A stretch of 64,000 nt of DNA. Origin: Amphiscolops sp. MND2022 (taxonomy: Eukaryota). The notes beneath the pieces are model-generated. The model saw only the letters and a list, made by a program, of their open reading frames with translations. It was not told the origin of the DNA and did no database searches. Positions 4,584 to 56,084 of this stretch are shown one piece after another (within the stretch, counting starts at the first letter, position 1; each line of letters starts with the position of its first letter). A program made the position numbers and the translations under genes. The DNA lies in contig OZ076409.1 of the NCBI GenBank assembly GCA_964187785.1, positions 41,046,001 to 41,110,000 on the forward strand. Direction: 5' to 3'.

Positions 4584-4789
4584 AAATCGAGTGGAAGCAT
4601 TATAATTTTTTACGAGTGAATTTTCTGATGAGATATTCAATCTCTGATGATATTCAATTTGTGATGAGATATTCAATGAGACTATATATAGTCTCATTGA
4701 ATATCTCATCACAAATTGAATATCATCAGAGATTGAATATCTCATCAGAGAATTCACTCGTAAAAAATTATAATGCTTCCACTCGATTT
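4584..4789. repeat. 206-bp loopless palindrome (one mismatch) with internal TGATGAGATATTCAA sub-repeats
   Basis: Centre GACTATA|TATAGTC at 4686/4687; arms pair out to 4584/4789. The ORF track gives nearly the same peptide on both strands. Confidence 0.95.
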
Positions 4790-6925: not shown

Positions 6926-6927
6926 GA

Positions 6928-7087
6928 AGGTACGCATTTGACCATATTACGCATTTTGCCATGGTACGCATTTTGCCATGGTACGCATTTTGTCATGGTA
7001 CGCATCATGCCAAGGTACGCATTTTGCCATATTACGTATTTTGCCAAGCTGCGCATTTTGCCATATTACGCATTTTGCCATGGTACG
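6928..7087. repeat. Second array of the same 17-bp minisatellite
   Basis: About nine tandem copies of ATTTTGCCATGGTACGC variants. Confidence 0.95.
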
Positions 7088-9554
7088 ATCTTATCAAGAC
7101 AGGCATGTTTCAAACGGAAGTTCCGAGAAACGTCCTTTTAGAAAAAAGAAGAAGAAAAACATTGCTTAGAACTGCGTGATAGGGAAAAAACAGCTGCAGA
7201 AAAAATTAAATTATTTTTGATGAACAGTAAAATGACATATAATCTGAAATTTACTCGAAATTTTAAAATTACTGGTAAGAATCTTTACAACCGCAAGAAA
7301 AAGACAAAAAACCACTGAACTCATATGATACGGAAATACATGTCTAAAGAGCACTAAAACTACTATAAAAAATCTCAACAATTGCATTTTAAACTACAGG
7401 AATAACATCTAAAAATGACTAAAATAATATCTAATTATTACAGGAAAAAATCTAATTACCACTAGAAAAAAAAATCAAAAACATCATTTGTATAAAAGTT
7501 CAAATCACTAGAATAGTATCTGAAAATGATGAATTTTAGGTTTTATTCCACCGGAATATCGAAATTTTTGATGAAACTTTCACTGATTCGATTTAATTTT
7601 ATTAAGCTGCCTACAAAATGTATCCTAAACTTGTAGTTTTCAGGAGTCAGAAAAAATTTTTGACTACTTATGCAATCGTGTCGTTTTTTTTCTCCTGACC
7701 TTCCTATGAAAAATTCAAATTTCTCAAAAAATGTCCAAACTATTCCAATAAAATTTTTCACAGTCATTATACACCCAAAGGTGCTCCTGCTTGCGCAATG
7801 GCATCAAAATCGTATGACTAGGAAGTGAGAAATATAGCCTAAATTACCCCAAAAATGACCAAAATACAGCCATTTTTAGACTTTTTTGGATTTTCTCAAA
7901 AACTCTCCATACGATTCGAGGGAAATTTTATATTCGAAGGTCATTCTACACCATGTTAGAGTCTTAGATGTGCAGTGGCGTCAAAATCGTATGGCTGGGA
8001 TCTGAGAAACAAAGTCAAAATTAGCCCAAAAATGACAAAAAAGCCAATTTTGGACTTTTTCGATTTTTTCAAATATTTTAAACTGCTTGAAAACTTTTAT
8101 GGAGTCTCTCTACACCATTATAAGGGCTTATTGTGTGCAATTTCATCAAATTCGTATGACTGGGGTTCGAGCGAATCAGAAGGAAGAAGACATAAACCGA
8201 CTCCTTTACCGCACATGCGGCTCTGGTTCCGAGTGAAATCAGTGAAATTTCAATGCATGGAACTTTCCTTGAGAATTTTATAAAACCATGGAAAGTTAAC
8301 TTGATAACGTACAAAAACTTGTAAAAAGTTCAAGCAGCTTCAACCAGGGCGAAAGCAAAGGGATCGCGCCGGTGAAGAAGTGGGAATGTTTTCAATGTTA
8401 CTTGAAGTAGTGGAAGCTCATTGTAATCTTACAAAATGTTTCCATGTATGCTCCCTGAATTTTCCATGTTTTGTGAAAAAAGCATGCATGATTAAATGCA
8501 GCAAGCAATTTTGACTATGGACCTCATTTAGGTGGTTTTAGTTTTAATTCTAGTTCTATAATAAAAACTACAGCCACAGGAATGAGATTCAAAGTTCCCA
8601 TGGTCGACGATGATTTCCCGCAATCTCATTCCAGAAATTTTGAATTCTTACAAGAAATCAATGTTTACTGTAAAAAAGCGCGTAAAGACCCGGTATAAGA
8701 ACTAATTTTTAGAAGTGTAGCTATTTCTTGAACTCTTAGGAAGATTCTTGCCATGGGAGTCATGGCTTACAAGTTGTAGTAAGAATTTGGTAAGATCCTG
8801 CCATTGCAGCCGTGATACCAGTAAGAGGGTCAACCAGGGACGATAAAAACTAGAATCTAATCCTCAGGAATGTCCTGAGAATTCTCACAGAAACTTCAAA
8901 CAAAGCATTTTCAAAACTAGGTGAAGTTCTGACACACTTTTGACCCTTTCGAAAATGTGTGTTATTTGAGAGCATTTCACACTCAGAGAAAAATGCTATG
9001 TCTTTTTTTCTCCATAGCACTGTATCACTGTCAGTTGATTAATTTTGCCGTTTATGCGAAGTATTAAATTTTTCTTATTTCCGATAGGTTTTGCCAAAAA
9101 GAGAGCGGTAGAAATACTCTTCTTAAATTACCATTTTGTGGACCTATAAACGGCTATACAAGAACTTTTAAAAATCAAAGTTTCAAGATGATCAATCTTC
9201 TCCCCTAATGAGTTTTGTAAGAGTATGCGAAAATATAAAACACCATCGTGGGTTCGAATCCGTTCTGATGCGTTACATTTTTAGCGTAAAATTTCCCGAT
9301 GCTTAGCGGGCGTCTTCTTCTTTATTCGCTTCCTGACTTACCGTTCCCCAAAGTCTCTAGTTTTTTAGTTCAATATTAGGGGTTTATTATTAGTCTTCCT
9401 ATTGCGTTTACCACATTTTCATTTGTGACTTTTGGTGATAGTCTCGTTTGTTTAGTTTACCGGTAACTTGGTTTCTAACTCAAAAGCGATAATTCTGATA
9501 TCTGTTGTCTTTCACTTGCTTTTTCTCACTCTCTCTCTCTCTCTCTCTCTCTGA

Positions 9555-18991: not shown

Positions 18992-20648
18992 TTTTACGTC
19001 TGCAAGGTAAATTAACAAAAACACTTACCAAGCTTTACGACGGCCTGGTTGTCAAATGGCGGACAATTCTAAAACTACTTTGCCCAGGAAAGGCACTTGC
19101 AAAATCCACTACACACAATAATTTCGAGATGTCCTTCCTCTTCAATCTCCGGACAATATTTATTGTAAAGTATCTTGCCTTTTAGGATATAGGTGATTCC
19201 ACTCAATCCGTCTGAGTTCAAATGAACGTTATCCTTTTTAGGTGTTTCTTGCCAAACACTTGCCCGGAAATTCCTCTGAATTTCCAGCCTTCTTGACAAG
19301 AAGCAAGTAAAGAATTAACTTCTTTTGCTTGGAGTGGTTGAGAGTTGCGTAAAGGTATACCAAGTACGAAAACCTTTTTAGCTTTGGTAAATAAAGGATT
19401 TGCAAGATCAGATATCTGTCGAACCAAGTTTTTTGTCGTAGTGGCAAATAGGTTGTTACCGCCTATAAATAGGACGATGATATCATAAAGATTCTTTTTG
19501 GGTATAAAATTGTAAACGTGCTCTATTTTTTCTCCAGGCAGTGATAAAACTCTAAAGTTAGCAATATCAAGCCCTTTTCCTTGGCTATCAGAAATTAACA
19601 AATTTCTGGTTTTTGATACTTTGAGTAGATGATATCGCATCTATCTCGATATGAAAAATCAGCCAAAATTACTTTGAATAAATTTCGGAAGTCGGTGAAG
19701 CAATTACTGCATCTTTGACTTTGCACTTATTCTGTTTCACAAACATAAAGTAGCTTTGGAGCTCTAAATTGTGATTATAGGAATCAACTTAGCTGTCTCG
19801 ATGAGGGGTAGCGTTGTTGATCTGCTAAACCAAACGATAAGTCCAAGTCCTTGCGTCCACGATAACTTTCTCAAGCAAAAATATCGCAAACATATGCAAT
19901 ATAATAAATTGACGTTGGAATTTCGAAACAATATAATATCACTTGTTCAACTCCAAAAAGCTCTTCAATAGCCAGCGTTAACTGAATTAATTGTACGAGA
20001 AACTTCCGAGCTTCCACTTTCTTCAATACTTGAGTAGCAAAGTCGACTGATTTGGATCTCTACTTGGATGCTGTTGTTTCTTAGTAGGAGTTAACTCTGG
20101 TTACTTTAACATACAGGAAATACCTAATGGTGGATGTTTGTGGTTTAGTTTACCATCACCATACAAGCGCCTTGATATATAGAATAAGCAGAAACAAACT
20201 ATTTAGCTGGGCTGGAGGTATACACCAAAACATGTAAAATTATAAATAAAAAGCATACATTTAAGCAAGAATAAGGCATAGATTTTCACGTGTTATTTGC
20301 TGTTAAATAATCAGCGAAGTTCACAAACAGTCCTCATGGGTCCTACGGACACTTATGTAGCCCAAATATGGAGTTCATAACAAGTTAAATACGATAAACA
20401 AAGATTAAAATCCAAATTTACAGTAATTTTGGAAAAAGAATCAGAAATGGGGCCTAGAACACGAAAAGAAAAATTTTTCTCTTCAATTTTCACTTTTTTG
20501 GCTGGATAGCTTCTAGGGGTCAAATAATTGTGATTGGTTGAAAACTAGCGCTCAAATACACTTATACACAATTTAACAGCACTTTTAGTTAGGCTATATC
20601 GACCTATTTTTTCGCTAAGATTTTTGAATTTCGTTTGAGGCGCCAACA
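18992..20648 (-). mobile_element. Solo LTR of a Bel/Pao family (1657 bp), related to the LTRs at 54931 and 62744
   Basis: Minus strand begins TGTTGGCGCCTCAAA and ends CTTGCAGACGTAAAA, like the Bel/Pao LTRs. Long collinear similarity over about 19670-20420. 5-bp TSD ACTTC at 18987-18991 and 20649-20653. Confidence 0.92.
19075..19640 (-). CDS. SGNH/GDSL-type hydrolase ORF inside the solo LTR (one frameshift in an A-run near 19235)
   Basis: Motifs in the expected order: LLISDSQG (block I), SLPG (II), LFIGGNN (III), and after a 1-nt shift KKDNVHLN (block V, DxxH). About 188 aa, ending CSGFCKCLSWAK. Confidence 0.8.
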
Positions 20649-21474
20649 ACTTCCCTGCAAGTTCGACTAGGGTTGTGGATCTACCATGCATTTTCCAATA
20701 CCGTATGACTGCAATTAAATTATCACAAACAAAAATATTTCCCACTTCGTTCCCACAAACACACGATCAAGTTCTCAATTAATCATCTGATATAATCAAC
20801 GCTTCTCAAATAGCACGCCGAAGATGACGCTAGGTTTCAGTTTGTAACTTGACTGAAGTTGGTTTGCACTAAAAGGGCGGCAAAATGGCTAACTACATAA
20901 ACAAAACTGCAGAACTTCGTTGCTTCAGATCGCCAAAACTTTGATGAATCTTTCAAGCAGCTAATAAAAGTCGAATACAAGAAAGAAAAATTACAGTAAC
21001 TTAAACAATGACAGTCACCCTGAGAAGACCACTTTTACAAGTTTTTCAAATTTCACAAGGTGGAAATTTGAGCTTAGAATTTAGCTGATGTCGAGCTGTT
21101 CATCTTTTCAGATTAAATGAAACGGATGGCATTTATTCTTTTCGGATCATCTCTTTCACTGTTTTTATGATTTTATTTTTTTCGGATTTTACTCTTTTTA
21201 TGATATAACAATATATAGTTAAATAAATTGAAATTACGTTTAAAATTCAGATTTAGCGTTTTTTGCCTCTTTGCAGGCCGAGACTGGTGTTTAGAACCCA
21301 GCTACTACCAATACTGCTTTTTGAGCCTTTTGCATTTTCGCCAGTTTTGGCCGTTAAAGGCTTGTTTTATACTTCTGAATGAGAATATCAATATTTCACG
21401 TCTGGAAGCGAAAATCGTCTCGAAAAGCCATTATTTTTAACGCAATTTCTCTCTATGAGCAAGTTTTAACCTTT

Positions 21475-22644: not shown

Positions 22645-24386
22645 TGTCGTAAGCATTAGCGTCGACTACACCATCTTTTCGGCGATTACAATTAGGCTTA
22701 CTAGCTGAACTGTCTTTAGGGTTAGTATTTTGCAGTCCTTCAGAATTTGCTTCCGGTCTCTCAGACGGAACGTCCCATCTATTCTGAGTCAAGTATCCCG
22801 ATCCGGCACTTAGAGCAGATTGAATCTGAGGCAATACCTGATTGCTAATTGCGTCGCTAATCGCCTTTTGAATCTGGGAATTGACACTACACATTATATC
22901 ATCTAGTTCTCTCGACAGCCTCGAGTTCAACTCGCTTGACAATTTGTTAATCTCAGCACTAGAATTACCTCCTGTTGAAATCTGGCCATAATCGGCATTA
23001 TTACTAGGACCTGTGTCCCTTATGGCTGAGTACCTGTTTTCACCATTATTCTCTAATTTGTCTGCAGAAGTACTGCCAGGCCTTCTGCCAAAATTGCTGC
23101 TGACACTTTCATCTCTCTCATTTCTATTGAAATGGTTTTCCCCTAACATAATATCAAGGTTTTCAATGTCAGACTGCATTTCTATTCCTCTTGACTTCCT
23201 AGCCTTTTTCTGTCTTCTTGTAGTAGGCATTAAGAATTCGAGGTTGAATAATTTATTGGTGATCTAAGTTTTACAATCTATAAGAGCAAAACAAACTGAG
23301 TGAGAGTATCATAAAGAAAAATGTGTCCACCTCTCGGAACAGGTAGGTATATATACTTCCGAGAGAATGGAATTTACATATTTTGATATAATACCCGCAA
23401 TTTACAAATTCCTTAAGTCACGAGGTTAAGGCACAACACTGGTTAAAATGAGGCGGTTAGCACCTTATCAAAGAACTCTAGGAATTCATACTTGTTAGGG
23501 TCACGAAGTTATATCCTTCCATTCGGAAACATCAACAATATTACTACATATCATCATAGTTGAGTGGCATCGGCAACAAACATCAAACAAATAATCATAA
23601 CGCAACTATCTAAAGAATGTCCATCACGGAATGCTGCCACGTGCCTGCGAATGTCGGCCGTTGCAACAAACGAGTAGCTTTAGCGTAAATCACGAAACAA
23701 AACACAACATGTCCTAAATCGGCCATTGGACTTTAATTCATTCAGAGCGAATAGCCTAGTTAGTCCAAAAGACTGGTACTAAGAATTGGGCTGGTATGGG
23801 GGTACTAATTATTTCAAACAGCGTAAAGGCACTAATTATTAACTTCAGGTGTAAATAGAAAGCTTACATGACTATTGAGCACTACAACATTATTAATACA
23901 ATAAGCTACAACAACGATTAAAGAAATAGCCTAATCCGGCCATCTGCCTAGTATTCCAACTAATTTAATGCACCATTAGGACAAACGGCCATATCCGGCC
24001 AATTTATTAAAGCAGTATAGCATCATGAAATACTTGAATATGATTGGTTGGTACATTAAGCTCAAGTGACGCTCTCGGACTGAAAGCTACGTACACTCGA
24101 ACTCGTTTCCTTTAAGCCGTTTAGTAGCTTGCGTTGAACTACAATTTATACTGAGCATCGTTCTTTTACAACTTGCAACTTCACTTGTCTAATGTATTAT
24201 TAGCAGACTAATACGCATTGTATCATAATAAAATTGTAATTGATCTAGGCAAACATAAATTTTGGGAGTGAGTTTTTAGAGTTTAGCGTAAACCTGTTCA
24301 AAATGTTGGTAGGGTTCCGGGAATTATCTCTTGACTGGCTGCTGAAGTCGTTATTAAAGTGCCATCACAGGCGGCAGCCTGCGACA
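22645..24386 (-). repeat. 3' LTR of the Gypsy element
   Basis: Near-identical to 36969-38710 (about nine substitutions seen by eye). Contains the duplicated gag N-terminus (ORF 22637..23230). Confidence 0.97.
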
Positions 24387-25082
24387 CTGCGGGTGTTATG
24401 AATAGAAAAGAGCCGGCATTCAGTCCGTTCTCGTAGGCCTCTCTCCTGATTCTCGTTATGTAATCTGGTTCTCCTCGTGGTTTAGATCTCTCACATACCA
24501 GTCCACTTTTTCCTTTTTGATTGCCTCCACTGACCTGCCGCAGACCATACAGCCAGAATACAGCTTCGTACTGACGTTTTCATAGGGTCTTGTATTCTGC
24601 ACATGATAAGAGGCGTGAAAACCCCCCATTGCTGGCTGCATAATAGGAGTGTCTGAGCTAGGCCCCCTCTCGTGTTCAGGGGGTGACATTGGTGTGTCTG
24701 GGATTGGCAACAAGGTTTTGCAGATTTCTATGCGCAATTTTCCTGCTTTTTTCGGCGGAGCGTAACACATTTCTTTGTCGAAATACCTGTGGTCCAATTT
24801 TGGGGTAATATCGGTTCGTACTTGAGCCGAACTTGGCCCAGCTTCTAGTTCGTCTTCCACGGGTTCGTCCACAGTCATGATCCTGCCTGCTACTAGCATG
24901 GGACTTGACGTGACTTCTCTTTCGATCCTTGCCACGAGCTGCTCTGTATCCGTGGAGCAGTCTGTTTCCCAGTCAGATGATTCGTCTTCGTCACTAGATA
25001 TGTAGATGACGGATCTTTCGGAGTCATCAGAGTCCGATTCTTCTAGGCCAAACAGTTTCCTTGAGAGGTTAAATTTGCTCAT
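24298..25082 (-). CDS. Gypsy accessory ORF3: acidic N-terminus with SIM-like motif and a CxxC; one apparent frameshift near 24490; ends inside the 3' LTR
   Basis: MSKFNLSRKLFGLEESDSDDSERSVIYISSDEDESSDW...CMVCG...VDWYV. An alternative frame continues RSKPRGEPDYITRIRREAYENGLNAGSFLFITPAVSQAAAC...PTF to TGA at 24300-24298. No signal peptide or transmembrane segment, so not a typical env. Confidence 0.7.
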
Positions 25083-25976
25083 TATAATTTTCTTGGCAAT
25101 TTTCGAAGCTAGCTGAGTCAACAGTTTGTCGATGAAATATGAGATAGAATGAATATATCAATTTTAGGAGATTAGCCGAGTTCGGCCTTTTTCCGACAAT
25201 CCGTTTTGGCGGAAGAATTCCTCGGTTGATTCTCCCTATCCGACGTAAACATTTCTGAATGGAATTCCATAATTAGTCGGCTATCTTTGATGATTCAATG
25301 TTTACCCCTCATCAGCAACACCGCTTGGAGAGGTGTGAATAACACTCAAGTTGTTAAAACCAACTTCATGATTTTCAAGTGGGTAATTAACAGGTCGCCT
25401 GAAGGTAATTAGCGGAGCGCGCCGTAACTTCTTCTTAACATGGCGTTAACCAATCAGATTCTTCCGTAGATAAATTGAAAAATTAATAAATAAAATGGCG
25501 GAAAATAATAATTCCGAATATTCCAAAATGGCGAATTTCTAACTAAGGGTAAATAAGGGCAACTGAACAAAACGGCAAAACAACACGGGGCAAACGGCCA
25601 TAACCGGCCTCTAATTAAATAAGCTGTAAATAACAAAGATCTTTGTACACTTCGCTGGCAGACTCCATGTACAGAATAAATATGTAGATAATCCATAATA
25701 TTAGTCTGGTAATAATCTTCAGCCACGAACTCCAACTTTCTAATTCATTATATTTATTTCCTGATTCAATTCCAATTCCATTTGAATTCCGTTTATTCTC
25801 CATTTGTATTCTATTTGGAATTTCCTGATCAGCGATTATCTCGATCTATCTCCAGCTTCGACGCTGACTCTCCGGAGTACTGCGGATTCCCCTTTTACGT
25901 CATAGCCGATCCTAGTCTGTTCCCTCATCAACTCTATCCAGATCAGGATCGATTCCAGAAAGGCGCCCCTTGCAGA

Positions 25977-28900
25977 ATGTCTTCAAATACAGGTTGGTTT
26001 GAATTTTCATTTTGAACAAACTCAACTTGATCAGGGTTAATTTGTTCACAAGATGCTTCCTGTTTCCACTAATGAGCACATGATAACTCATTTCATTCAA
26101 GTTTTCAAGATACTTCCGGAAGTTTTCTAATGCGGTAAAATGGATTTCTTTCAAGGAAGCTTACCGCCAAATTTCATTCTCTTCTGTTTAGATAATCAGA
26201 ATACTGATGAACGTCAATCCAGAACCAACGCCGCACTTGTGAATCTTTCTGAGCCCTCTCAAAGTTCGATTCCTATTCCTGTTTTAAGAGCTACTCCGAA
26301 TCCTGTTCCTTCTCCGCCTCCATTTCCTCCAATCAGAGCTGTTCACACCCAAGCTCCACAGATGGCTGCCGATTCCCCTTTCAGCAGTGGGAGTAATGTT
26401 GACGTCACGGCTTACGCGGATGAGGTAGTCCAGCGAATGGAAGTCTCACAGGAGCCCATTGACACTAACCTCGTTAATCCCACTGAGGAACGGTCCTTTA
26501 CGGCTCAAGATCAAGATACCTTAAATGCGAGCCAAATCCCCGAATTTGTGAGAACCAGCACTCCAACTCTACCTGATCGGTCCGGAGCAGAGGAGGTCAG
26601 CCTCTCGTTACTTGAATCCACACTGTCAGTGGCACCACAGACACAACCTGGCTTCCCTGAACTACAACTTGCCCAGATTCAGACTCATGAGACACCTGTG
26701 GTTTCCTTCTTGCAAACCGACGAGGAAGCCTCGTCTTCCGTGCATGAGCCTCCTCCACTTCCCGGAGGAACCGGACAGCTCAAAACCCCAGGGGACCACA
26801 GTGATACCAATCACACTATGGAAACTACTAGCCAGTCTGAAATCCCTCCTTATACGCTACCATCCCTTTTGGCGCGGAGTCAGCGTCGGAAGGGTGTGAA
26901 GATTCAAGGTCGGAAGCACATGATCCAGGACCACCAGGGACGTCCAAGTTCGTCCGTCAACCACAAGAGGAAGTTTTGCGAGATCTGTCAGGGCGAAGCA
27001 GGGCTACCCTGAAACAGTATTTTGAGACCGACGATCCCTACACCTTCCCAGTTGGGCAGAGGGTCGTAGCCTTCACGGAGCCACAAGTCTACCATCTGCT
27101 TCGAGTCCTGACTGATGAAGCCATAAACATGACTTGTACAACCATGGAAAGGATGGTAATTGGAGCTGTCAAAGGGACACCAGTGACTGTCCCATCACAC
27201 GCCGAGAAATTTCGAACGCGGGCCCGGACTCCCACCCCAGGACCTAATCAATCAGCTGAGTCTGGTTCCGATGGATTCTCAGCTGAACTTAGCTCTGGGC
27301 CTGGTCTCCAACTTGACTTGAGTACACTTCAGGATGTAACCGATTTCCCCTATCTATCTTGAAGATAGCGATAACTCCACGGAAAAGGCCCTGATTGATC
27401 AGGTTTATAGTAACATTGTTCCCGAGAGCCTCTCCCCAGTGGCACAACAAAAACAGCCATTAGATTCGTCAGGGGAAGGGGCTGAAACAGCAGAAAAGAG
27501 TAGCCTCGACGTCACCTTATCCGAGGTCCGTGATCGGCTCCCTGACCGAAAGTCCCGTCAAGGGATAACAATGACTAAGAAGGGCAAATCCAAGAGGATT
27601 CCAAGACGAGGGGTACCAATGCGCGAGGAGATCTTCTCTAAGATTGGGTGGACTAGGTCCTTCATTTCCGGCCCGGCTGATCCTCTGCATAACCCTCACA
27701 TGGTGTGGTGCCACATGTGCAAAATAATTTCAGCATCAAGACCAAGGGCACTGTGGAGATCCTGCGTCATCACAGGACGGAAAAACACCTCCGCCGTGAC
27801 CAAAGATGGCGGTATGAACATCTCAAGACCATTGATGATGTGACCGGGAAGGTCCAGCACAGAGTTCGCGGGAGGGATGGCAAAATCCTTAACAAGATTG
27901 ACCTCGCACATGAGCTTCCCAAGTTCATTGACGCGGAGCTTGTTGACGTTGGCGTGAGACATCCCTTCTACGAGGACTACTTAAAAGGACACGCCTTTGC
28001 TCCAGTTACCCCCCAAACGCGGTTGCAGACCCAAATTTGTCTCTTGGGAGACTTCGTCCAGGACTCAGGCAACCTAACCATCCTCCGTAGATTGTGGGCA
28101 AGGGCAGGGAGTTATACTGGATTCCAGACAGCTTTCCAGGATTTTGACTGGAGCGAAAATCACATCATGGTAAGTTCACCCGTTTATTCTCTTGTAAGGG
28201 TATACGTAGTGTAAGGGCGACTTAGCTGGAAATGAGATCACACAATCATCCAGATTTGTTCCTTTTCAGGCCATTTTCCAACACATCTTTAACTGCATGA
28301 TGGAGGACGTGGCCGAACAGGTCGTCGCTTCCCAACACTTTGGGATTGAATTCGAGAGGAGAGGAGCTAACCGATTCATGTCTCTTCGATACTGGAAGGG
28401 CGCAAAACTTTGCCGTATCTTCATCTGCCGAAGTAGTCTCGCTACCGTAGGGCTCACTGAAGAATTGGGTTCTCTGTCTCGGCTATTGTCTGTCATATCA
28501 ACTGCTCCCGACGTAGTCGCGATTTCAGGATGTGCCGTCGACCTCATAAGGACAGTGGACCAACATCCTTCCTATCCACGTGGGGTTCAGAGCTGCTTCC
28601 GCTTCGAGTCACTTGACTTGAGGACCTTAATGCACAAGATGAACTACAGTGTCTTTGGGCATATAGACATGTTTTCCGTCCTCCAAATGCTTCTGGTCTC
28701 GCTTGGAGGTTGTCTAACTGAGGACTGGGTCGCGGAGTCAGCTGAACTTGTCCGGGTAAGTCTACTTTGTGACTCTAATTTGCACAGCACCGGTGACGGG
28801 GGGCTGGTAGTCAATGACGGTTAGGACTTCAATCATATGAGCTACTTTATTTAGGCCATTACGACCTGTAAGCTGGAAGTAGCCAAAGTACCTGATTTGT

Positions 28901-30419
28901 GTCGCGATCTGTTGAAAAGGTGGAAGTCGGTCCTCCGCTATCTCACAATACACTCGCAGCGACAGGAAAACCAGGGGGTCCACAACAAGGTTATAACCCA
29001 CGAAAATATCTGTCTCTTTTCGGAGAGGGTCCCAATGACCGTTCTCTCTTACCGACATAGGTAGGGTTATTGTATCATGTGCACATCATGTGTTTCCACA
29101 GGTCCAGAGCTTCGAGTGGTCCCTTATTATGGACAACTTCTTCGCTGTCAAGTTGGAGTTGTTTCAACGTTTGGTCAGCGTTTGTAAGTATTTCTAGCTT
29201 GATAAAGTCACTTCGGTCTGTTGCCCTTCTAGGCACCTTTAATTCTAATGTTTTAGACGTCACCAGTTTCGTCATCAGTTTGAGTCAGAGGCGAGATGCT
29301 ACCTTCTTTCTCTGTGGGGAGGTATGTAAAAACATCAACCGCCTTTGCTTTCGTATTTATCAGCCCGATACAGTACCCCTGGAAAGTGCTTGGTTCCTGC
29401 TGATGGATTTCCGGCTCAGTCAGGGCAAACTCATGAGTGACGAAGATTTCCTAGTGCGTCTCAAAATTGCCAGCAAGGTGACCACTGCGAGCAACCTGAA
29501 GGCAGCCGGACTTCATTTCAACAAGAAGTCAAGCAAGGCAGCCATCAATAAGACCGCTGAAAGTGCGAAGTCAGATTTCGTGGGAAGCGCAAGGGATTTC
29601 ATCAAGTTCCTGTTATAAGGGGTGCTCCAGCATACCGAGCTCGGATCCGATCTCATCAAAAGATTGGCTGCATTTGACCCGCACATCTTGTTAAGGAGGC
29701 CCGTGGAAGTTGCCTTAAGGCATTTTGATCGCTTGCATTCCACATTTCAGTTGCGTTCTTGGGTTTCGGCGTCCAACGAATCAGTTTGCCGGGACGAATA
29801 TGTTGCCTTGTTGGACTACCTCCGAGCCAATCATTCCTCTGAGTTCAGCTCAGCCAGTAATCCTCCTGACCTCATTGACTTCTTCATGGATCTGGAGTTC
29901 CTCCAAACTCGCGAACACCTTTGTTATTTATTCAAATTGAGCTGCCTCTGTATCACTTCCGTAAATACCGAGTACCCCTCAGTTTCCTTGGGGAGAATCG
30001 ACACAAAGGGGCTCCAATCTCGTTTGGTAGACGTCATCTTGCCTTGCCAAAGTTTTATGTCGACAGTGCCTGATTCCTTGGTTGCCTGCTGCACTAAGTC
30101 TCGACTTGAGAAATTCTCCGAATTGTCCTCATCATTTGGACAATCTGCTTTTGCCCCTGATTACGACCCTTGGATTTACGTAGACGGTTTTGGGCGTTCT
30201 GCGATTTACAAGACTCTTGTCTCTTCCTATCGCTCTGTTCTCTCTGGGTCAGAGTTCCATTTTAGAAGTCCTGGTTTTGCTGATACTTCTTCTGTGCGTG
30301 ATGCTCCTGCCGTCAAGCTGCCTAGTGATAGTAAGCGTAGGCGGATGGAAAGAAGTTGTTCTCGTAGTAGGGCCTCATCTGTCGCCGAAGAATCCCCTGC
30401 TGATGTCTCTAAAAACTAA
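25977..30419 (+). CDS. Antisense, intron-containing cargo gene of the Gypsy element (about 1270 aa): S/P/T/E-rich N-terminus, BED-like zinc finger, hAT-transposase-like body; disrupted in this copy
   Basis: GT-AG introns 25993-26191, 28170-28269, 28756-28854, 28990-29101 and 29184-29256 (and possibly in-frame 29322-29363) join the plus-strand ORFs in phase. Zinc finger WCHMCKNNFSIKTKGTVEILRHHRTEKH. 1-nt indels near 26975, 27360 and 27722, and an in-frame TAA at 29616. Confidence 0.8.
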
Positions 30420-30634
30420 TTGTACATATGTATTTATGTACCTACAAACTGTAAACTTTGTTGATTTTCTGTTTTGTTCCTTTTGATTTCTTGATGTCTT
30501 GATCCCTCATTTATTCCTTTTGTATGGGATCCTTTGAAATGCCCCAGTATTTATTCAAAAGAAGTTCTCAGAGGGGCTTGAAAAGATAAAAGATAGCAGA
30601 AAAGAACTCCCATTTTCGGGAAAAATTCAATTCT

Positions 30635-33600
30635 TTAGTATCTGAAGTCTTCTGAGTAGTTTGGGTTGGGGTTAGGTCTGAGATTATATTTCCCTCCTCT
30701 AGGGCTCAGACTTTCATTTCTAGCATCGTTTTCAGGTATTTCGGGCACGATAATATCATCCCCCCTTTTCGGAGAATTTTGTGCGTCGTCTTCATTCGTC
30801 AAATTTCTTTCTGAGAGAATTTCATCATTTTTTGGTCTTTCATCCATATTCGGCAAAGTTTTTTCTTGACTTTTCGGGTGAACGGCCGAATTTGGCCGAT
30901 CAGATTTGTCATTGCTAGCCGCATCACTAGCTTCATTCCTTTTTGTGACGTCATGATTTAATCTTTCATTCCGGCTCCGCGTCGCGTGGTCAGCGTAGTT
31001 TGTTTCGTCTCTCGTGATTATGTAATCCGCTTCATTCTCGCCTACGTCACTGTAACTCGGTTCTACCGGATTTGGTTGTTTGCCATTCGGCAAGCTAGTC
31101 GGAATAGGATCATGTCCTCGTGTAATAAGCTGCTCGCCAAAGTCAGTTTCCCATGTGATTATATATAAGTCATCTTGCGGAATAACAATTTCTTCGTCAG
31201 GCTGTAGCTGCTGTTCTTGGAAATTGTCCTCAAGAGGCTGATTAGGGACAAACTTTTTAAGGCGAATTCGATGCAAAATTTGAGTCTTGTTTGTATTAAT
31301 CCGTCGTACTATATAGTTTTCATTTGGCAAAACTTTTTGGACTACAAATGGTCCAACCCAACGGTAATCGCGGAATGGAATTTTTGATCCTTGATTGTCC
31401 GCTTTCGGTTGTAAGACAAAACAGTATTCGTTCTCCTTTAGTGGAGCGGCTTTTGCTTTGCGGTCGTAATATTCTTTGTACTTGATGTACGACTGCATAA
31501 TGTTCTGCTTCGTTTTGTCAATCAGGATTTTTGTCCGGTTTTGGATTTCTTCAGCAAATTCGGTTGTGGGGTTGATCTGCTCGTTTGGATTATTTCCAAG
31601 CTTGTGATCTAAAATATTAAATGGAATTCGTCCGTGGAATACTCTCGTCGGCTCACAACCGATGCTGGCGTTATAACTAGTATTATGATTCAGTACTGCT
31701 AATGGCAAGTATTTGTGCCATTGTCGGCGATATTCCCCACATGCCATTTTGAGATTTGTTTTCAATGATGCATGGGTTCGCTCCAATTTCCCAATTGTCT
31801 GCGGGTGTTTTGTTGTTGCGCATTTGAGTGTTACGCCCAAAATTTGCGTAATCTCCGCGATAATTAAAGAAGTAAATGCAGTACCTTTGTCAGTAATGAG
31901 AGTCGTTGGTAAATATGCATGTTTGGTCATGATGTCAATTATTGCCTTTGCTACATTGATCGCTGATGCGTCCGTAAGGGGATAAGCGAACAAATATCTG
32001 GAGAATACATCAATTGCCGTTGGGACATTTTCATACCCTCCACTTGGGGGAAGATTCGGCAATAGGTCGATTTGCATGGCGTCTTCAGGTCCAAGGTCCT
32101 ATTCGGGCAAGTTGAGTAGCTCAGGTGTGATCGTTGCGTTAGGGACTCTCTTGTCTCTGGCACATTGTTCGCACCCTTCTACCCACTTTTTGACGTACTT
32201 AGCCATGCTAGGGTAATAATACCTCTGTCGAATTTTCTGCAGCATTTTTGAAATCCCAGGGTGTTTGTGCGCTGTCCCATGAAGGGACTGAAGCAATTCC
32301 TGGAGTAGGTGCTGCGGGAGCAGAATTTGATGGTATTTAACGTTCCCTGTTTCATCGAAATATTGCCTTGTCAGGATTTCGTCCTTTAGTACAATTCGTT
32401 CCAGATTGTTTGCATAATGCCTGTATCGAGCATCCTGGTGCAGTAGATTTTCTGAATACTCTTCATGGAGCAGTTTTGCTTTCAATTGTTGTAGTACCGC
32501 ATCTTTGGATTGCTCGATAATGATCTGGTTCGTTTTCCTCAATCGGACTTGTATATCGGTGTGTTGCTTGACCAGATTTGTTGACAGAGTTTGTATGGTA
32601 ACAGTGGGCTCATCAGTTGCTGGATTTTTCCTGATTGCTTCTTTCCTTGCCCAATTTTGTTCCTCCGTCTCATCGTCGTCATTGGTGTAGAAGATTTGTT
32701 CTTCTTGTGACACCCCTGCGGATTGGACATTGATTTCGATTGGTAGTGTTTGTACATCTTCACGAATTTTCATTACCAATTTGTCCTTCGGGTCTGCTTC
32801 CAATCGGGACAAATAGTCGGCAGCTGTATTTTGTGCCCCCGGGATGTGCGCACTGATAACAAAATTGAACTGGATAACATAGTCACATGCGTTCCACAGT
32901 GCTGGGGGTATTATTTTCGTTTGGAAAAATCGTGTTACAGCTTTGTTGTCCGTAAGGATGATGACCGGTTTCGGCGCACCCCAAAAGATATGTCCGAATT
33001 CTTTGAATGCAAAATAAATTGCAAGAAATTCTTTAGCATAAATTGACATCTTGATTTGTGCTGGGGTGAAAGTTTTTGATCCATATGCGACCGGTGCATA
33101 CGATTTTCTGAGTGATGTGAATTTCTGGCTTGGGTCGTCTTCAATTAGGACCGCGTACCCGGCTGCACCAAAACTTGCATCAGTCATTAGTGCTATTTGC
33201 TTGTTCGGAATGGGTTGCTGTAGGGCCAAGTCGCAACATTTGTCTAGTGCTTTGTTGATTTCTTCGAATTGCTGGACTAATTCTTTCGATACTAGGACTT
33301 TTTCGTCACTTTTCAGCATCTTGTAGAATGGGGCAAGGCGTTCGGAGAGTCTTGGGACATAATTCCTGTAGTAGTTTAGGAATCCCAAATATCGTTGTAA
33401 AGCCTTTTTCGACTTCGGGAATTTGGTCGTTTCCAGAAAGTTTTGCACGTTCTGTTTCTGGGGTTTAACGCCTTGTGGGGTAATAGTCCGTCCGAGAAAA
33501 TCAATTTCTTTTGCACCGAAGTGGCATTTGTGCATTGTTAATTTAAGGCCTGCTTCCTGTATGCATGTGAATGTAGCTCTCAGGTTCGTTATGAGGTGGT

Positions 33601-35845
33601 CAGCGACATTGGCTGCAATGCCGATATCGTCCACATACTGGGCACACTGATCCGCTTTAAAGACTTTGTCGAGGTATTCCCTCATGAAACTCGAGAATGC
33701 GGATAGTGACCGGCTAAGGCCTTGTGCCAAACGTCTATAGGCGAATGTGCGACTGACAAAATTAAAAGCCAACGTTTCGATTGAACGTTGGTCGGCCATT
33801 GGTAGGCAGTGGTATGCCTGCGAACAGTCTAATTTACAGAACAGTTTTTTGCCTGCCAAGTGTTGAGCAGCATCAACTAGTGTACTGACGGGGTGATTAT
33901 TGTTGATATAATCATCCGAGATGAGGTTGTTGATTTTTCTCAAGTCAACCAAGAGTCGGAGTTTCCCATTCGGCTTCTTTTGTGCGAATATTGGACTCGC
34001 ATATTTCGAGAATGGTAGAGTAGTGATTATGCCATATTTGTGTAACATGGCTAGTTCGACTAGGATGTCCTCCTTCAGGTTGATAGGAGCTGGAAGGCTT
34101 TGACTATAGGCTGAGGAATCGTCCTTAGGTGTCAGTTTCACCTTGAATTCTTCATTCATGCCTATATCAAATCGGTGTCGTGCAAAGATGCCATGGAAGT
34201 CCACTAGCAATTTCTCAATTTTCTCCTTCTCTTCAGGAGTAAGGGTGGAATCTTTCCAGTCAAAGTTTTCTAAGAATTTTGCACGCGATTCTGCATCTGT
34301 AGTGGGGTCGAGTGTCTCCAGGTCCTGTAGGGCCTGTAACTCGCGTAGGATTTGTTTTTGTATAGGTGTGTGTTCCTCAGGATTTCCAGGATTTTCTGGA
34401 GTTGGGAACCAATAATTTTCAGAGTTTTGCGGATTTCTATTGGTCTTGATGAGACTGCTGACGTAATGGGCTGCTTGCTCCTGGTCATTCTGCAACAGGT
34501 GCCAGGTTGATGCCGGATCTACCGGTTTGACATACTTCATCTGTTCTGGTGTCATGACAGAGAAAGTGGCAATATGAAGTCCCTTTTTGAGTTTATAAGG
34601 GTGGTCCGTGAAATTATTCACAGGTATTGCTATACTGCCATTATTCAAAGTGACTAGGGCTGGGCAGAATGTGATGTCGCCTTCTTCATGTAGAAGGTCG
34701 CTCGGTTGCAAAATCCCAGTGACAGCATTTTCAGGATATAGTAAGGAATTAGTCCGAATTAGGACTCTGTCATTTGGCGGAATAGTTATTTCAGCAGGGT
34801 TGAGGATTGGTTCAAGTACGTTTGAGTACTTATGGTCAGCTGTTTTGAGCTGCATTGAAAAGAACGGGAAATTCAAAATTCCTTGTCTCATGTCCAGTAC
34901 TGTATGATTTCGTTGACGGAACATTAGTCCAATGATCGGTCCCGTTAGGTTCTCCATTACTATGAAGATTTCATGGAACTCAATGTCACCAACCTCAAAT
35001 CTGAGCTCTATGGTACTCTTGGGAGTTTCCAATTGGCCATTTGCGACCATTATTTGAAAGTTCGGAGGCGGACCTTCTCGGATAACTGATTGTGGTGATA
35101 GAAGTCGGATTTTCCGGAGGTCCATTTCAGGGATTGCACTGGAAAGTGCTCCAGTGTCAATTAGGCCGTCTATGGTTAATTCCCCAAAGTCCATCGGGAA
35201 GTACAACATTCGCTTTTTGTATTTAAGGTTGATACTGGTCGAAAGTGGTATACAGTCTGGTTCACCCTCTTTGGTAATGAGGATATTTTGGAATTGTTTC
35301 TCGTCCAGTAGTGATTGTGGAATTGGTTCTGTACTGGCTTCGTTAGTTTCGGTTCCCAAAGGGTTCGGGAATACTGGATGGTTAGTACCATCATTCATTT
35401 GCCAGTTTTCGATTAGTGCTCTGGTTTTCTTGTTGTGGGTTATCGGGGGATTTTCATGGACTGTGGTTTGGTAATGGGCTATATCATCCAGGACGTATTG
35501 AAATTGTAGTAGGTCCTGGTTGTAAATCTCACTGTCCCAATAGGGATCTCTGCCGTAATCTGGGTTGATGTACGTTGGATTGTAATCATCGATCAAGGGA
35601 ATGGGCCTGAATCGGGTTGTAAAGGTGGTTGTGTAGTCAGGATCCCAAACAGGAATTGGTTTTTGGAACAGATGGGTATTATTATAGGTAATGACGTTGG
35701 CCTTCTCCATCTGCTGCTGCCAGACAACAGAGGGGTAACCCATCAATTGTTGTTGATACTCATGGAAAGTTTTTGTTGGATGATCCGACCTGATATATTG
35801 ACAGACGGATATTAGTTGGTTGTATTGGAGTCGTGGCGAAGTTAG
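30635..35845 (-). CDS. pol: Gypsy pol polyprotein (protease, reverse transcriptase, RNase H, integrase) with one in-frame TAG at 32101-32099
   Basis: LIDTGA (aspartic protease), KLDCSQAYH and QYVDD (RT), TDASFGAAG and LTDNKA (RNase H), HPG...CEQC (HHCC), QIDL/ITDKGTAF/KLER (DDE), C-terminal YNLRP. ORFs 32099..35746 and 30635..32077 are in the same frame. Confidence 0.95.
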
Positions 35846-37554
35846 TTTTTTGACTCATCTTTGTTTGATGAGGATTGGGTATTGGAGGACGTTGGTTTGT
35901 TGTGGGCTTTGGGTGCCTTAGAGTCAGGGTCAGTGTCTGAAGAGTCTTCAGGCCTGGTACGTTTGGGTTTCAAGTGAGCGCCTGCTCCCTGCCAACATCT
36001 CTCCTCTGGATGGTTTTTCTTGCCACAAGTCCCGCACTTAGGGTACGTTTTCTTCTCTGTCGATTTGCCTTGTTGGGCATCTTTCTCTTTCTTCTTTTTG
36101 AGTTTTTCACAGTCTTTGACCATGTGGCCCTTTTCCTTGCAATAATTGCAAGTTATGTCCGACATTTGCCCAGTGGAAAGAGGGGTTTTAGTCTTAGAAG
36201 ATGAGGAAGTCATTGTTGCCATGGGTAGGTTGTCTGACTCCTCGAGGGCGTTAAGCTCTAATTCCCTCTCCAAATGAGCAACCATTTCGTCGTATGAGCC
36301 ATTTTCTAATCTGGCCATGTTGACTGATCGCTTGAGCTTTGGAGGCAGTTTTGCGTACAATAGACTGTCAATCATTTTTTGTGCATGGTCGCCAAATGCT
36401 TTTTCTGCCCCTTGATTGAGTTCCTCAAGGAAATCCGGTAGCTTCATCGTATTGGGATCAAAGACCAAGCGGTGCCATTTATGCTTGGCAGTCGCTTGTG
36501 ACTCGGGTTTGACGTATTTCCGTCGGAAAATGACTAAGACGTCTTCAAGTGTCTGTCGGTTGGTCGAGTTAATATTTCTGAACGTCTGAAGAGCATTCTT
36601 CCTCAGGAGCGAATGAAAATGATTAATTTTCATCTGTTCAGTCATTTCTGGCTGCATCTTGATCATGGTATGAAACAGATCTTCGAACAGCTCAAATTTC
36701 TCACTTTTGCCATCAAAGGTCATGGTATTTGAGTTGACCGGGCGTATGGTGAGTTGTTGGGCTGCTGGTCGATTCTGCATGTTCGTCAAGACGTCTGCCA
36801 GTCTGGTAATTGGATCAGGTTCAACAACCGTGGCGGGTCTTTCTTGCGCTGGGATCGTCGTGTCAAGGTTGATGTCCTCGTAGGACTGATCAAGATGGTT
36901 TCGTGATAGAATCCGTCCCGTGAGAAACTCAGGAATTTGGTTTGGAGATTCGTTGTCTCCTGTCACCATGTCGTAAGCATTAGCGTCGACTACACCATCT
37001 TTTCGGCGATTACAATTAGGCTTACTAGCTGAACTGTCTTTAGGGTTAGTATTTTGCAGTCCTTCAGAATTTGCTTCCGGTCTCTCAGACGGAACGTCCC
37101 ATCTATTCTGAGTCAAGTATCCCGATCCGGCACTTAGAGCAGATTGAGTCTGAGGCAATACCTGATTGCTAATTGCGTCGCTAATCGCCTTTTGAATCTG
37201 GGAATTGACACTACACATCATATCATCTAGTTCTCTCGACAGCCTCGAGTTCAACTCGCTTGACAATTTGTTAATCTCAGCACTAGAATTACCTCCTGTT
37301 GAAATCTGGCCATAATCGGCATTATTACTAGGACCTGTGTCCCTTATGGCTGAGTACCTGTTTTCACCATTATTCTCTAATTCGTCTGCAGAAGTACTGC
37401 CAGGCCTTCTGCCAAAATTGCTGCTGACACTTTCATCTCTCTCATTTCTATTGAAATGGTTTTCCCCTAACATAATATCAAGGTTTTCAATGTCAGACAG
37501 CATTTCTATTCCTCTTGACTTCCTAGCCTTTTTCTGTCTTCTTGTAGTAGGCAT
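35842..37554 (-). CDS. gag: Gypsy Gag, 570 aa, starting inside the 5' LTR
   Basis: Intact ORF with capsid-like TFDGKSEKFELFEDLF and zinc knuckles CNYCKEKGHMVKDC and CGTCGKKNHPEERC. Confidence 0.93.
   Translation of the reverse strand: MPTTRRQKKARKSRGIEMLSDIENLDIMLGENHFNRNERDESVSSNFGRRPGSTSADELENNGENRYSAIRDTGPSNNADYGQISTGGNSSAEINKLSSELNSRLSRELDDMMCSVNSQIQKAISDAISNQVLPQTQSALSAGSGYLTQNRWDVPSERPEANSEGLQNTNPKDSSASKPNCNRRKDGVVDANAYDMVTGDNESPNQIPEFLTGRILSRNHLDQSYEDINLDTTIPAQERPATVVEPDPITRLADVLTNMQNRPAAQQLTIRPVNSNTMTFDGKSEKFELFEDLFHTMIKMQPEMTEQMKINHFHSLLRKNALQTFRNINSTNRQTLEDVLVIFRRKYVKPESQATAKHKWHRLVFDPNTMKLPDFLEELNQGAEKAFGDHAQKMIDSLLYAKLPPKLKRSVNMARLENGSYDEMVAHLERELELNALEESDNLPMATMTSSSSKTKTPLSTGQMSDITCNYCKEKGHMVKDCEKLKKKKEKDAQQGKSTEKKTYPKCGTCGKKNHPEERCWQGAGAHLKPKRTRPEDSSDTDPDSKAPKAHNKPTSSNTQSSSNKDESKN
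35845..35851 (-). promoter_or_regulatory. -1 ribosomal frameshift slippery site A AAA AAC
   Basis: gag ends TCA AAA AAC TAA. The -1 frame is open from 35845 and is in frame with the pol ORF at 35746 (99 nt apart). Confidence 0.85.
36957..36968 (-). promoter_or_regulatory. Primer-binding site of the Gypsy element
   Basis: TGGTGACAGGAG immediately follows the LTR end. It resembles the complement of a tRNA-Leu 3' end; the tRNA identity is tentative. Confidence 0.7.
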
Positions 37555-38710
37555 TAAGAATTCGAGGTTGAATAATTTATTGGTGATCTAAGTTTTACAA
37601 TCTATAAGAGCAAAACAAACTGAGTGAGAGTATCATAAAGAAAAATGTGTCCACCTCTCGGAACAGGTAGGTATATATACTTCCGAGAGAATGGAATTTA
37701 CATATTTTGATATAATACCCGCAATTTACAAATTCCTTAAGTCACGAGGTTAAGGCACAACACTGGTTAAAATGAGGCGGTTAGCACCTTATCAAAGAAC
37801 TCTAGGAATTCATACTTGTTAGGGTCACGAAGTTATATCCTTCCATTCGGAAACATCAACAATATTACTACATATCATCATAGTTGAGTGGCATCGGCAA
37901 CAAACATCAAACAAATAATCATAACGCAACTATCTAAAGAATGTCCATCACGGAATGCTGCCACGTGCCTGCGAATGTCGGCCGTTGCAACAAACGAGTA
38001 GCTTTAGCGTAAATCACGAAACAAAACACAACATGTCCTAAATCGGCCATTGGACTTTAATTCATTCAGAGCGAATAGCATAGTTAGTCCAAAAGACTGG
38101 TACTAAGAATTGGGCTGGTATGGGGGTACTAATTATTTCAAACAGCGTAAAGGCACTAATTATTAACTTCAGGTGTAAATAGAAAGCTTACATGACTATT
38201 GAGCACTACAACATTATTAATACAATAAGCTACAACAACGATTAAAGAAATAGCCTAATCCGGCCATCTGCCTAGTATTCCAACTAATTTAATGCACCAT
38301 TAGGACAAACGGCCATATCCGGCCAATTTATTAAAGCAGTATAGCATCATGAAATACTTGAATATGATTGGTTGGTACATTAAGCTCAAGTGACGCTCTC
38401 GGACTGAAAGCTACGTACACTCGAACTCGTTTCCTTTAAGCCGTTTAGTAGCTTGCGTTGAACTACAATTTATACTGAGCATCGTTATTTTACAATTTGC
38501 AACTTCACTTGTCTAATGTATTATTAGCAGACTAATACGCATTGTATCATAATAAAAATGTAATTGATCTAGGCAAACATAAATATTGGGAGTGAGTTTT
38601 TAGAGTTTAGCGTAAACCTGTTCAAAATGTTGGTAGGGTTCCGGGAATTATCTCTTGACTGGCTGCTGAAGTCGTTATTAAAGTGCCATCACAGGCGGCA
38701 GCCTGCGACA
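36969..38710 (-). repeat. 5' LTR of the Gypsy element
   Basis: 1742-bp direct repeat of 22645-24386, adjacent to the PBS. Confidence 0.97.
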
Positions 38711-44663: not shown

Positions 44664-44771
44664 CTAAGCAGTTTCTGTGAAAACCATTAGGAAAACCATA
44701 TCATGATTTTATAGGACGTCCTATAAAATCATGATATGGTTTTCCTAATGGTTTTCACAGAAACTGCTTAG
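44664..44771. repeat. 108-bp perfect palindrome
   Basis: Centre GGAC|GTCC at 44717/44718; 54-bp arms. Confidence 0.95.
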
Positions 44772-53758: not shown

Positions 53759-53776
53759 ATCCCTCTGTGGTCGCCA
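53759..53776 (-). promoter_or_regulatory. Primer-binding site, tRNA-Arg-like
   Basis: TGGCGACCACAGAGGGAT lies 15 nt inside the right-hand LTR and resembles known tRNA-Arg primer sites (TGGCGACCAC...GGGA). Confidence 0.7.
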
Positions 53777-53791
53777 AAAAATGAGGTCTCA

Positions 53792-56081: not shown

Positions 56082-56084
56082 TTT

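What the first reader, a model, noticed from the sequence alone, without database searches (positions are those of the whole stretch)
24298..25082. Env-position ORF3 with a SUMO-interacting-like motif, running into the 3' LTR
Seen: a sense-strand ORF where env would sit, with no hydrophobic segments. It has VIYI followed by SSDEDESSD in a very acidic tract, a CMVC motif, and, after one 1-nt shift, an open frame that crosses the LTR boundary and stops 89 nt inside the LTR. Established: a V/I-x-V/I-V/I core plus an acidic/Ser tail is the classic SIM, and SUMO is central to transposon silencing in animals. Inference: candidate retrotransposon-encoded chromatin or silencing modulator.
Basis: partly seen in the sequence, partly recalled or inferred. 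Interest (0 to 1): 0.72.

Follow-up and report, generated by a model that had tools for sequence, protein, structure and literature searches.

The report
SUMO-docking accessory gene of a retrotransposon
A family of jumping genes, likely from an animal, carries a conserved third gene with no known relatives whose protein keeps a SUMO-binding-type motif across very distant copies and likely works in the nucleus to help the element escape host silencing.

Summary
The ORF lies in a 16,066-bp Ty3/Gypsy element (minus strand, 1,742-bp LTRs, 99.5% identical). This copy has a frame break near codon 197, but relatives encode one continuous 256-264-aa protein ending inside the LTR. It is not env: no membrane segment, no Pfam, PDB or fold match. 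The SIM-like core plus Ser/acidic tail is kept in 115 of 132 close relatives and 9 of 15 distant ones (0.35 expected by shuffling), with a free X position; one clade lost it and mostly shows a reversed SIM-like motif nearby. Additions: a cyclin-docking-like RKLF and a USP7-type AGPS (close clade mainly), conserved cysteines, a probable internal promoter, and a head-to-head antisense zinc-finger gene. The invariant C-terminal SQAAAC is a DNA-level LTR-end signal. SUMO binding, expression and function are untested. Best reading: a nuclear, motif-rich accessory protein that docks on SUMOylated chromatin factors; anti-silencing is the likeliest purpose (about 0.4). New variant of a known kind.

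The parts
22645..38710 (-). Whole Ty3/Gypsy LTR retrotransposon, 16,066 bp, TG...CA ends, 5-bp target duplication CTGCC
36969..38710 (-). 5' LTR, 1,742 bp; gag ATG at 37554 lies inside it (195 codons in the LTR)
22645..24386 (-). 3' LTR, 9 mismatches to the 5' LTR
35842..37554 (-). gag (DUF1759, CCHC knuckle), read through the TGG-starting primer-binding-like site at the LTR edge
30635..35854 (-). pol in the order PR-RT-RH-IN; one in-frame stop at 32099-32101 in this copy
24492..25082 (-). ORF3, residues 1-197
24298..24491 (-). ORF3 C-terminal part, in the adjacent frame in this copy; continuous in relatives; ends 89 nt inside the LTR
25050..25061 (-). RKLF, cyclin-docking (RxL)-like motif; close clade only
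   Evidence: 107 of 122 covering representatives; 0 of 15 distant
24972..25010 (-). SIM-like motif VIYI plus SSDEDESSD (hhXh core, Ser/acidic tail)
24831..24842 (-). AGPS, USP7-type P/A/ExxS motif in a variable linker
   Evidence: [APE]GPS in 49 of 64 close; 4 of 15 distant have [APE]G[PS]S
24540..24551 (-). CxxC; with C121, C239 and often H160 a predicted zinc site, followed by a predicted two-helix hairpin (about residues 185-222)
24368..24386 (-). 19-nt LTR-start sequence, identical in window, L001 and L002, read by ORF3 as SQAAAC
25083..26139 (.). Spacer between ORF3 and the antisense gene: three YY1-like AANATGGCG (25437, 25492, 25525) and a CCAAT box (25450-25456); inferred bidirectional internal promoter
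   Evidence: motif names recalled
26140..30419 (+). Antisense gene head-to-head with ORF3; first exon about 680 codons ending at a GT donor near 28170, with a W-CxxC...H...H BED-like finger; three frame breaks in that exon in this copy; later exons inferred

Best explanation
ORF3 is a conserved, non-envelope accessory gene of this Ty3/Gypsy family, and its protein likely docks on SUMO-modified nuclear proteins through a serine- and acid-flanked SIM and would thereby help the element's own copies stay transcribed despite SUMO-dependent silencing. Shown: a continuous ~260-aa ORF in many relatives; a SIM-consensus motif held at one position down to 24-36% identity; no membrane segment; conserved cysteines. 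Predicted: a mostly disordered N-terminal two thirds and a small zinc-binding, two-helix C-terminal module. Inferred: expression from a divergent internal promoter shared with the antisense zinc-finger gene; phosphorylation of the SIM serines as a switch; in the close clade, added RxL (cyclin) and AGPS (USP7) docking sites that would set timing and stability; the C-terminal module or the antisense BED-like protein would supply specificity for the element's DNA or RNA. The protein would act as an adaptor or competitor, not as a ligase, since it has no RING.
For: Continuous ORF: 199 hits of 357 candidates, 120 listed at 49-96% identity; 276 of 4,651 with a profile; 356 at E<=0.001 among 1.84 billion representatives; 63 of 84 cluster members fetched are 250-275 aa. 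Substitutions are more conservative (mean BLOSUM62 -0.07) than single-base neutral changes (-0.41) (crude test). SIM: 115 of 132 covering representatives fit core + 3 D/E/S; in 64 full-length ones 63 keep hhXh, all 64 have an S-x-x-D/E after it, and flanks and linkers are far more variable. Distant set of 15: 9 keep core + 3 D/E/S at the same place (3 of them with Pro first, as in ICP0's PIVI, PMC3174244 passages), against 0.35 expected from shuffles; X is Y, C, N, W or I; a 4-member clade (SH-aLRT 99, quick tree) lost the core and 3 of its 4 have an acidic + hXhh-like motif about 20 residues on. SUMO links piRNA targeting to heterochromatin in flies (10.1101/2021.07.27.453956 abstract); viral SIM proteins counter SUMO-based silencing (PMC8616421, PMC3174244 passages). 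AGPS/PGPS/EGPS are proven USP7 sites elsewhere (PMC6203733 passages). AlphaFold: 163 of 261 residues under pLDDT 50; hairpin at pLDDT 87-95.
Against: No binding, expression or localisation data. SIM consensus is degenerate and many matches are not real (PMC8616421); under 15% of strict RxL matches bound cyclins (PMC12356897 passages), and RxL is absent in 15 of 15 distant relatives. In the close clade the nominally free X position is Y in 63 of 64, hinting at a further or different constraint. 2 of 15 distant relatives (P0480, P0494) match neither SIM pattern. No DNA of close relatives was available, so a nucleotide-level cause of the conservation was not excluded by dN/dS. A SIM says nothing about direction: it could recruit repression. 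A 2019 review knew no TE-encoded anti-silencing factor against piRNA or KRAB-ZFP pathways and argues they are hard to evolve (PMC6719617 passages). This copy is broken in ORF3, pol and the antisense gene.
Confidence: 0.42

Rival explanations
1. Rev/CERV-like factor: a nuclear phosphoprotein that binds the element's unspliced RNA through its Cys/His module and promotes export or processing, using the SIM to localise to nuclear bodies or pores.
For: CERV of C. elegans Cer1 is an LTR-retrotransposon accessory nuclear protein with a C4-type Cys loop and an essential phosphoserine (PMC10309623 abstract and passages). ORF3 has four conserved Cys and conserved S/T-P sites. The element has a long internal region with many donor-like sites.
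Against: ORF3 is half CERV's size, acidic, lacks an Arg-rich RNA-binding tract, has its own near-invariant ATG rather than a shared Gag exon; no direct sequence comparison with CERV was possible.
Confidence: 0.2
2. Integration or pre-integration-complex tether: the SIM steers new insertions to SUMO-rich heterochromatin or nuclear periphery, playing the part of a chromodomain.
For: The integrase has no chromodomain hit; HIV-1 integrase uses SIMs for cofactor binding and nuclear localisation (PMC10144533 passage); the window is repeat-dense.
Against: ORF3 is a separate gene with no sign of being packaged or fused to Pol (longest listed hits 342-345 aa).
Confidence: 0.13
3. Tas/Tat-like transactivator whose acidic, aromatic N-terminus is an activation domain; the SIM match is incidental or secondary.
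For: 3' position overlapping the LTR and a probable internal promoter resemble foamy-virus bel/tas (recalled); acidic tract with conserved Trp in the close clade.
Against: Activation domains tolerate scrambling (recalled), whereas here a fixed hhXh-SS-acidic pattern is held and apparently replaced by a reversed form when lost; the Trp is not kept in distant members.
Confidence: 0.12
4. Self-limiting repressor: the SIM recruits SUMO-dependent silencing to the element or to competitors for copy-number control.
For: Host silencing factors use SUMO to build heterochromatin; self-control is common in TEs (PMC6719617 passage).
Against: The family is highly expanded (several clusters of 80-136 member sequences) and has recent insertions (LTRs 99.5% identical).
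Confidence: 0.09
5. Env-like or fusogenic protein, or a non-functional open frame kept by cis-acting sequence.
For: Position 3' of pol; the last conserved block is indeed a DNA-level LTR signal.
Against: No membrane segment; open frame with in-frame indels and conservative changes kept to 24-36% identity; third-position variation resumes right after the 19-nt block while C-D-G is kept.
Confidence: 0.04

Closest known systems
Non-envelope ORF3 / additional ORFs of LTR retrotransposons (bdelloid GDSL, DEDDy, CC, TM types, PMC5408684; plant sense and antisense aORFs, PMC7264820; passages seen)
   Same: Family-specific extra ORF between pol and the 3' LTR; sense and antisense extra genes; separate transcription unit likely.
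   Different: No enzyme, coiled-coil or membrane family match; motif-rich disordered protein; sense and antisense genes arranged head-to-head; ORF runs through the LTR edge.
CERV of C. elegans Cer1 (PMC10309623, abstract and passages)
   Same: Accessory protein of an animal LTR retrotransposon with spaced conserved Cys and phosphosites.
   Different: CERV is 517 aa, shares exons with Gag, has three folded domains; 'SUMO' occurs 0 times in that paper's text.
HSV-1 ICP0 and other viral SIM proteins (PMC3174244, PMC8616421 passages)
   Same: Phospho-serine-flanked SIM (ICP0 PIVISDS vs PIYLSSD / VIYISSD here) plus a USP7-binding feature in a disordered viral-type protein.
   Different: ICP0 is a RING ligase (STUbL); ORF3 has no RING and no sequence or fold link.
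VANC proteins of Arabidopsis VANDAL transposons (PMC6719617 passages)
   Same: Transposon accessory gene proposed to protect its own family from silencing.
   Different: VANC is a plant DNA-transposon protein acting on DNA methylation through sequence-specific binding; no homology tested or seen; function here unshown.
Retroviral 3' accessory genes overlapping U3 (nef, MMTV sag, foamy bel/tas; recalled)
   Same: Small motif-rich ORF at the 3' end running into the LTR.
   Different: Host element is an env-less Ty3/Gypsy; no sequence or structural match.

Membership tests
Ty3/Gypsy LTR retrotransposon (host element) | Two LTRs with TG...CA ends and target-site duplication | tested here: met
   1,742-bp LTRs, CTGCC duplication
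Ty3/Gypsy LTR retrotransposon (host element) | pol order PR-RT-RH-IN | tested here: met
   Pfam hits in that order; best PDB hits foamy and Ty3 RT
Ty3/Gypsy LTR retrotransposon (host element) | Placement in a named clade by RT phylogeny | not tested
   no reference RT set at hand
Envelope (env) protein | Membrane anchor / hydrophobic segment | tested here: not met
   max KD19 0.66 and 1.31; 1 of 64 relatives >=1.6
Envelope (env) protein | Homology to a viral fusion glycoprotein | tested here: inconclusive
   no Pfam, PDB or BFVD match
SUMO-interacting motif (phospho-SIM type) | hhXh or hXhh aliphatic core | tested here: met
   VIYI; 63 of 64 full-length close relatives; consensus from PMC8616421
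SUMO-interacting motif (phospho-SIM type) | Flanking acidic residues / phosphorylatable serines | tested here: met
   5-8 D/E/S in the next 8 residues in 64 of 64
SUMO-interacting motif (phospho-SIM type) | Lies in a disordered region and is conserved above its flanks | tested here: met
   pLDDT <50 over most of residues 1-40; rank 12 of 258 windows; 9 of 15 distant vs 0.35 expected
SUMO-interacting motif (phospho-SIM type) | Binds SUMO, dependent on the core | not testable with these tools
   no SUMO sequence was available to the complex predictor; needs experiment
SUMO-targeted ubiquitin ligase (ICP0/RNF4 type) | RING domain | tested here: not met
   only four conserved Cys and one or two His, widely spaced, against eight ligands of a RING (recalled); no RING hit in 52 and 18 members scanned
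Cyclin-docking RxL motif | [RK]xLx{0,1}[FL] consensus | tested here: met
   107 of 122 close representatives; consensus from PMC12356897
Cyclin-docking RxL motif | Kept across the family | tested here: not met
   0 of 15 distant relatives
USP7 TRAF-pocket motif | P/A/ExxS, best as AGPS/PGPS/EGPS, in a disordered linker | tested here: met
   49 of 64 close relatives, linker otherwise variable; 4 of 15 distant; binding untested
CERV/Rev-like export factor | Binds element RNA and is needed for its export | not testable with these tools
   no RNA or cell data
TE-encoded anti-silencing factor (VANC-like) | Expression de-represses cognate elements specifically | not testable with these tools
   no expression or chromatin data

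The most novel reading that the evidence does not exclude
An animal LTR-retrotransposon lineage carries a two-gene counter-silencing cassette on a divergent promoter: a BED-like zinc-finger protein that recognises the element's own DNA and a SIM/USP7/cyclin-docking adaptor that intercepts the SUMO step of heterochromatin formation. It would be a first protein anti-silencing system of an animal retrotransposon, convergent with herpesvirus ICP0 and plant VANC.
Probability: 0.2. Interest if true: 0.88.

Novelty: new variant of a known kind. Interest (0 to 1): 0.62.

Why it matters
Protein counter-defences against silencing are common in viruses but, as of a 2019 review (PMC6719617, passages), none was known from animal transposons against piRNA or KRAB-ZFP pathways. 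A deeply conserved SIM in a retrotransposon accessory protein gives a concrete, cheap test (peptide-SUMO binding, tethering) of whether animal retrotransposons engage the SUMO machinery that silences them. Even if the purpose is RNA export or integration targeting, it is an undescribed accessory protein family in a highly expanded element lineage.

Tried and rejected
No own genome is held, so copy number, dN/dS and linkage in other copies were not measured. No sequencing run was listed: no evidence on expression. Pfam: no hit above threshold for ORF3; weak Spin-doc zinc-finger hits in 12 of 52 members (best E 0.015) and a Rad50 zinc-hook hit in 1 of 18 reflect the CxxC only. PDB sequence search: 0 hits at E<=10 with two ORF3 profiles. 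Foldseek PDB and viral: 0 at E<=0.001; wide VIA search best Z 5.8 on a generic helix pair. ESM Atlas: nothing above 0.83 for ORF3, 0.89 and incoherent for an antisense piece. Homodimer-plus-zinc prediction gave no answer. ORF3 and the antisense protein are not related. No relative in viral contigs; the 17 prokaryotic matches to the 19-nt LTR start encode no relative. A Gag-ORF3 splice was considered from an upstream KIAKK stretch; upstream frames diverge and the ATG is near-invariant, so not supported. The SQAAAC block was rejected as a protein-only motif. Earlier scan notes: nothing. The careful tree did not finish; the quick tree was used.

Full report
Setting. Self-comparison shows a 1,742-bp direct repeat at 22645-24386 and 36969-38710 with TG...CA ends, 9 mismatches and a CTGCC target duplication: a 16,066-bp element on the minus strand. 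It has gag (ATG at 37554, 195 codons inside the LTR) and pol in the order PR-RT-RH-IN, i.e. Ty3/Gypsy. A BEL/Pao element elsewhere in the window (Peptidase_A17, E 1.8e-41) suggests an animal host (BEL/Pao being metazoan is recalled); the host is otherwise unknown.

Observation. A natural relative aligns to residues 1-197 in one frame and to the rest in the adjacent frame, so this copy is broken near 24,490; it also has a stop in pol and three frame breaks in the first exon of the antisense gene.

The ORF is a real gene. A protein search gave 199 hits of 357 candidates (120 listed, 49-96% identity, all unnamed ENA proteins), a profile gave 276 of 4,651, and an exhaustive HMMER scan 356 at E<=0.001 (150 listed). 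Relatives are one continuous 256-264-aa ORF ending in the same LTR-encoded tail; 63 of 84 cluster members fetched are 250-275 aa. Several clusters hold 80-136 sequences, which may span more than one assembly and is not a copy number. From the 150 listed I picked 13 long, low-scoring proteins (24-36% identity); some sit on 1-4-kb contigs and one cluster has a JGI member, and two JGI loci were found (L001, L002; 2 of 197 candidates), so the family likely extends beyond one host.

The SIM. Of 157 representatives, 132 cover the motif; 107 read VIYI and 115 fit core + 3 D/E/S. Among 64 full-length ones (filtered by length and by intact ends; the filter favours an N-terminal LF, so the RxL count is taken) 63 keep hhXh and the core ranks 12 of 258 windows; above it are only six LTR-overlapping windows, two STDTE windows and three windows overlapping the SIM itself. 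In the 15 distant proteins 9 keep core + 3 D/E/S at the same place (6 fully aliphatic, 3 with Pro first as in ICP0's PIVI, PMC3174244 passages), against 0.35 expected from shuffling; P0501 (IIYI-SSNE) is a near miss; X varies (Y, C, N, W, I). A four-member clade lost the core, and 3 of its 4 members show an acidic + hXhh-like motif about 20 residues on (one counted with Phe last); P0480 and P0494 match neither pattern. This is the behaviour expected of a functional short motif. Against: the motif class is degenerate (6% of shuffles give the minimal pattern), X is Y in 63 of 64 close relatives, and no DNA was available for dN/dS.

Other anatomy. The close clade adds [RK]xLF at the N-terminus (107 of 122), matching the cyclin-docking consensus, though under 15% of strict matches bind (PMC12356897 passages) and it is absent from 15 of 15 distant relatives; and AGPS/PGPS in a variable linker (49 of 64; 4 of 15 distant), a proven USP7-binding form (PMC6203733 passages). 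Several S/T-P sites are conserved. C178, C181 and C239 are invariant and C121 nearly so in 18 diverse members. AlphaFold gives a mostly low-confidence chain (163 of 261 residues under 50) with a confident two-helix hairpin after the CxxC (pLDDT 87-95); no fold match was found. The invariant SQAAAC is the LTR start: 19 nt are identical, third positions included, in window, L001 and L002, so it is at least partly a DNA signal that the ORF reads through.

Neighbourhood. Between pol and ORF3 lies a plus-strand gene (26140-30419) with donor- and acceptor-like sites and a BED-like W-CxxC...H...H pattern (55 of 75 long relatives match my pattern; 'BED-like' is recalled, Pfam gives only a weak zinc-ribbon). 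Its first exon is also a large intact family (204 hits of 815). It is head-to-head with ORF3 across 1,057 bp that hold three AANATGGCG motifs (at most 2 in 2,000 shuffles) and a TGATTGG box; the same box lies 350-450 bp upstream of the ORF, same orientation, in L001 and L002 (each alone is not significant). YY1 and CCAAT names and their link to bidirectional promoters are recalled. An internal promoter is therefore inferred. Linkage of the two genes outside this window is not shown.

Mechanism. Most likely ORF3 makes a nuclear adaptor whose phospho-regulated SIM docks on SUMOylated chromatin factors (I put real SUMO binding at about 0.7). SUMO couples piRNA targeting to heterochromatin in flies (10.1101/2021.07.27.453956, abstract; listings), and viral SIM proteins counter SUMO-based silencing, so protection of the element's transcription is my lead (0.42 overall). 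Rivals: CERV/Rev-like export (0.2), integration tethering (0.13), transactivator with incidental SIM (0.12), self-repression (0.09), env or non-functional (0.04).

Comparison and novelty. Non-env ORF3s and antisense extra ORFs are known (PMC5408684, PMC7264820, passages), and CERV is a proven accessory protein of an animal LTR element (PMC10309623, abstract and passages). My paper searches (listings and abstract starts) showed no retrotransposon accessory protein with a SIM; the library is partial, repeat databases could not be searched, and supplements of element surveys (e.g. PMC13524379, of which I saw two passages; PMC11889832, listing only) were not read and may list this family. PMC4231158 was seen as abstract only, PMC13534243 and PMC10144533 as passages. 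Verdict: a real, undescribed accessory protein family with a well-conserved SIM-type motif; function untested; new variant of a known kind; interest 0.62.

Noticed in passing
window 26140-30419 (+): Antisense, probably intron-containing gene inside the element, with a BED-like zinc finger; first exon ~680 aa is a large intact family with no Pfam or PDB match.
   Followed up: partly
window 36969-37554 and 22645-23230 (-): gag starts 586 bp inside the LTR, so every LTR or solo LTR carries ~195 codons of gag beginning with a basic RRQKKARKSR stretch; the frame runs through the primer-binding-like site.
   Followed up: partly
window 24387-24410 (-); L001 1180-1213; L002 1180-1207: No polypurine tract just before the 3' LTR in the window copy (short G-rich runs in L001, L002), but a 19-nt LTR start identical across elements whose ORF3s are only 26-37% alike.
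   Followed up: partly
window 25350-25372; L001 157-181; L002 248-272: A short palindrome-like stretch about 280-310 bp upstream of the ORF3 ATG appears in all three loci; significance not tested.
   Followed up: no
window 46920-54563: Second LTR element with 772-bp LTRs (99.2%) and no gag/pol-sized ORF; one 331-aa minus-strand ORF (48787-49779) with repeated GHRRGRPP and no Pfam hit; possibly non-autonomous.
   Followed up: no
window 54931-63894; 18992-20649: BEL/Pao element with 1,151-bp LTRs (97.7%) and an upstream 360-aa ORF; an inverted, interrupted ~86% relative of its LTR lies at 18992-20649.
   Followed up: no
window 43803-44509, 45580-45779, 44664-44771, 4580-4793: Several long near-perfect palindromes (arms 351, 100, 54 and 107 nt).
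   Followed up: no
window 5938-6266, 6878-7138: Two arrays of a 17-nt tandem repeat.
   Followed up: no
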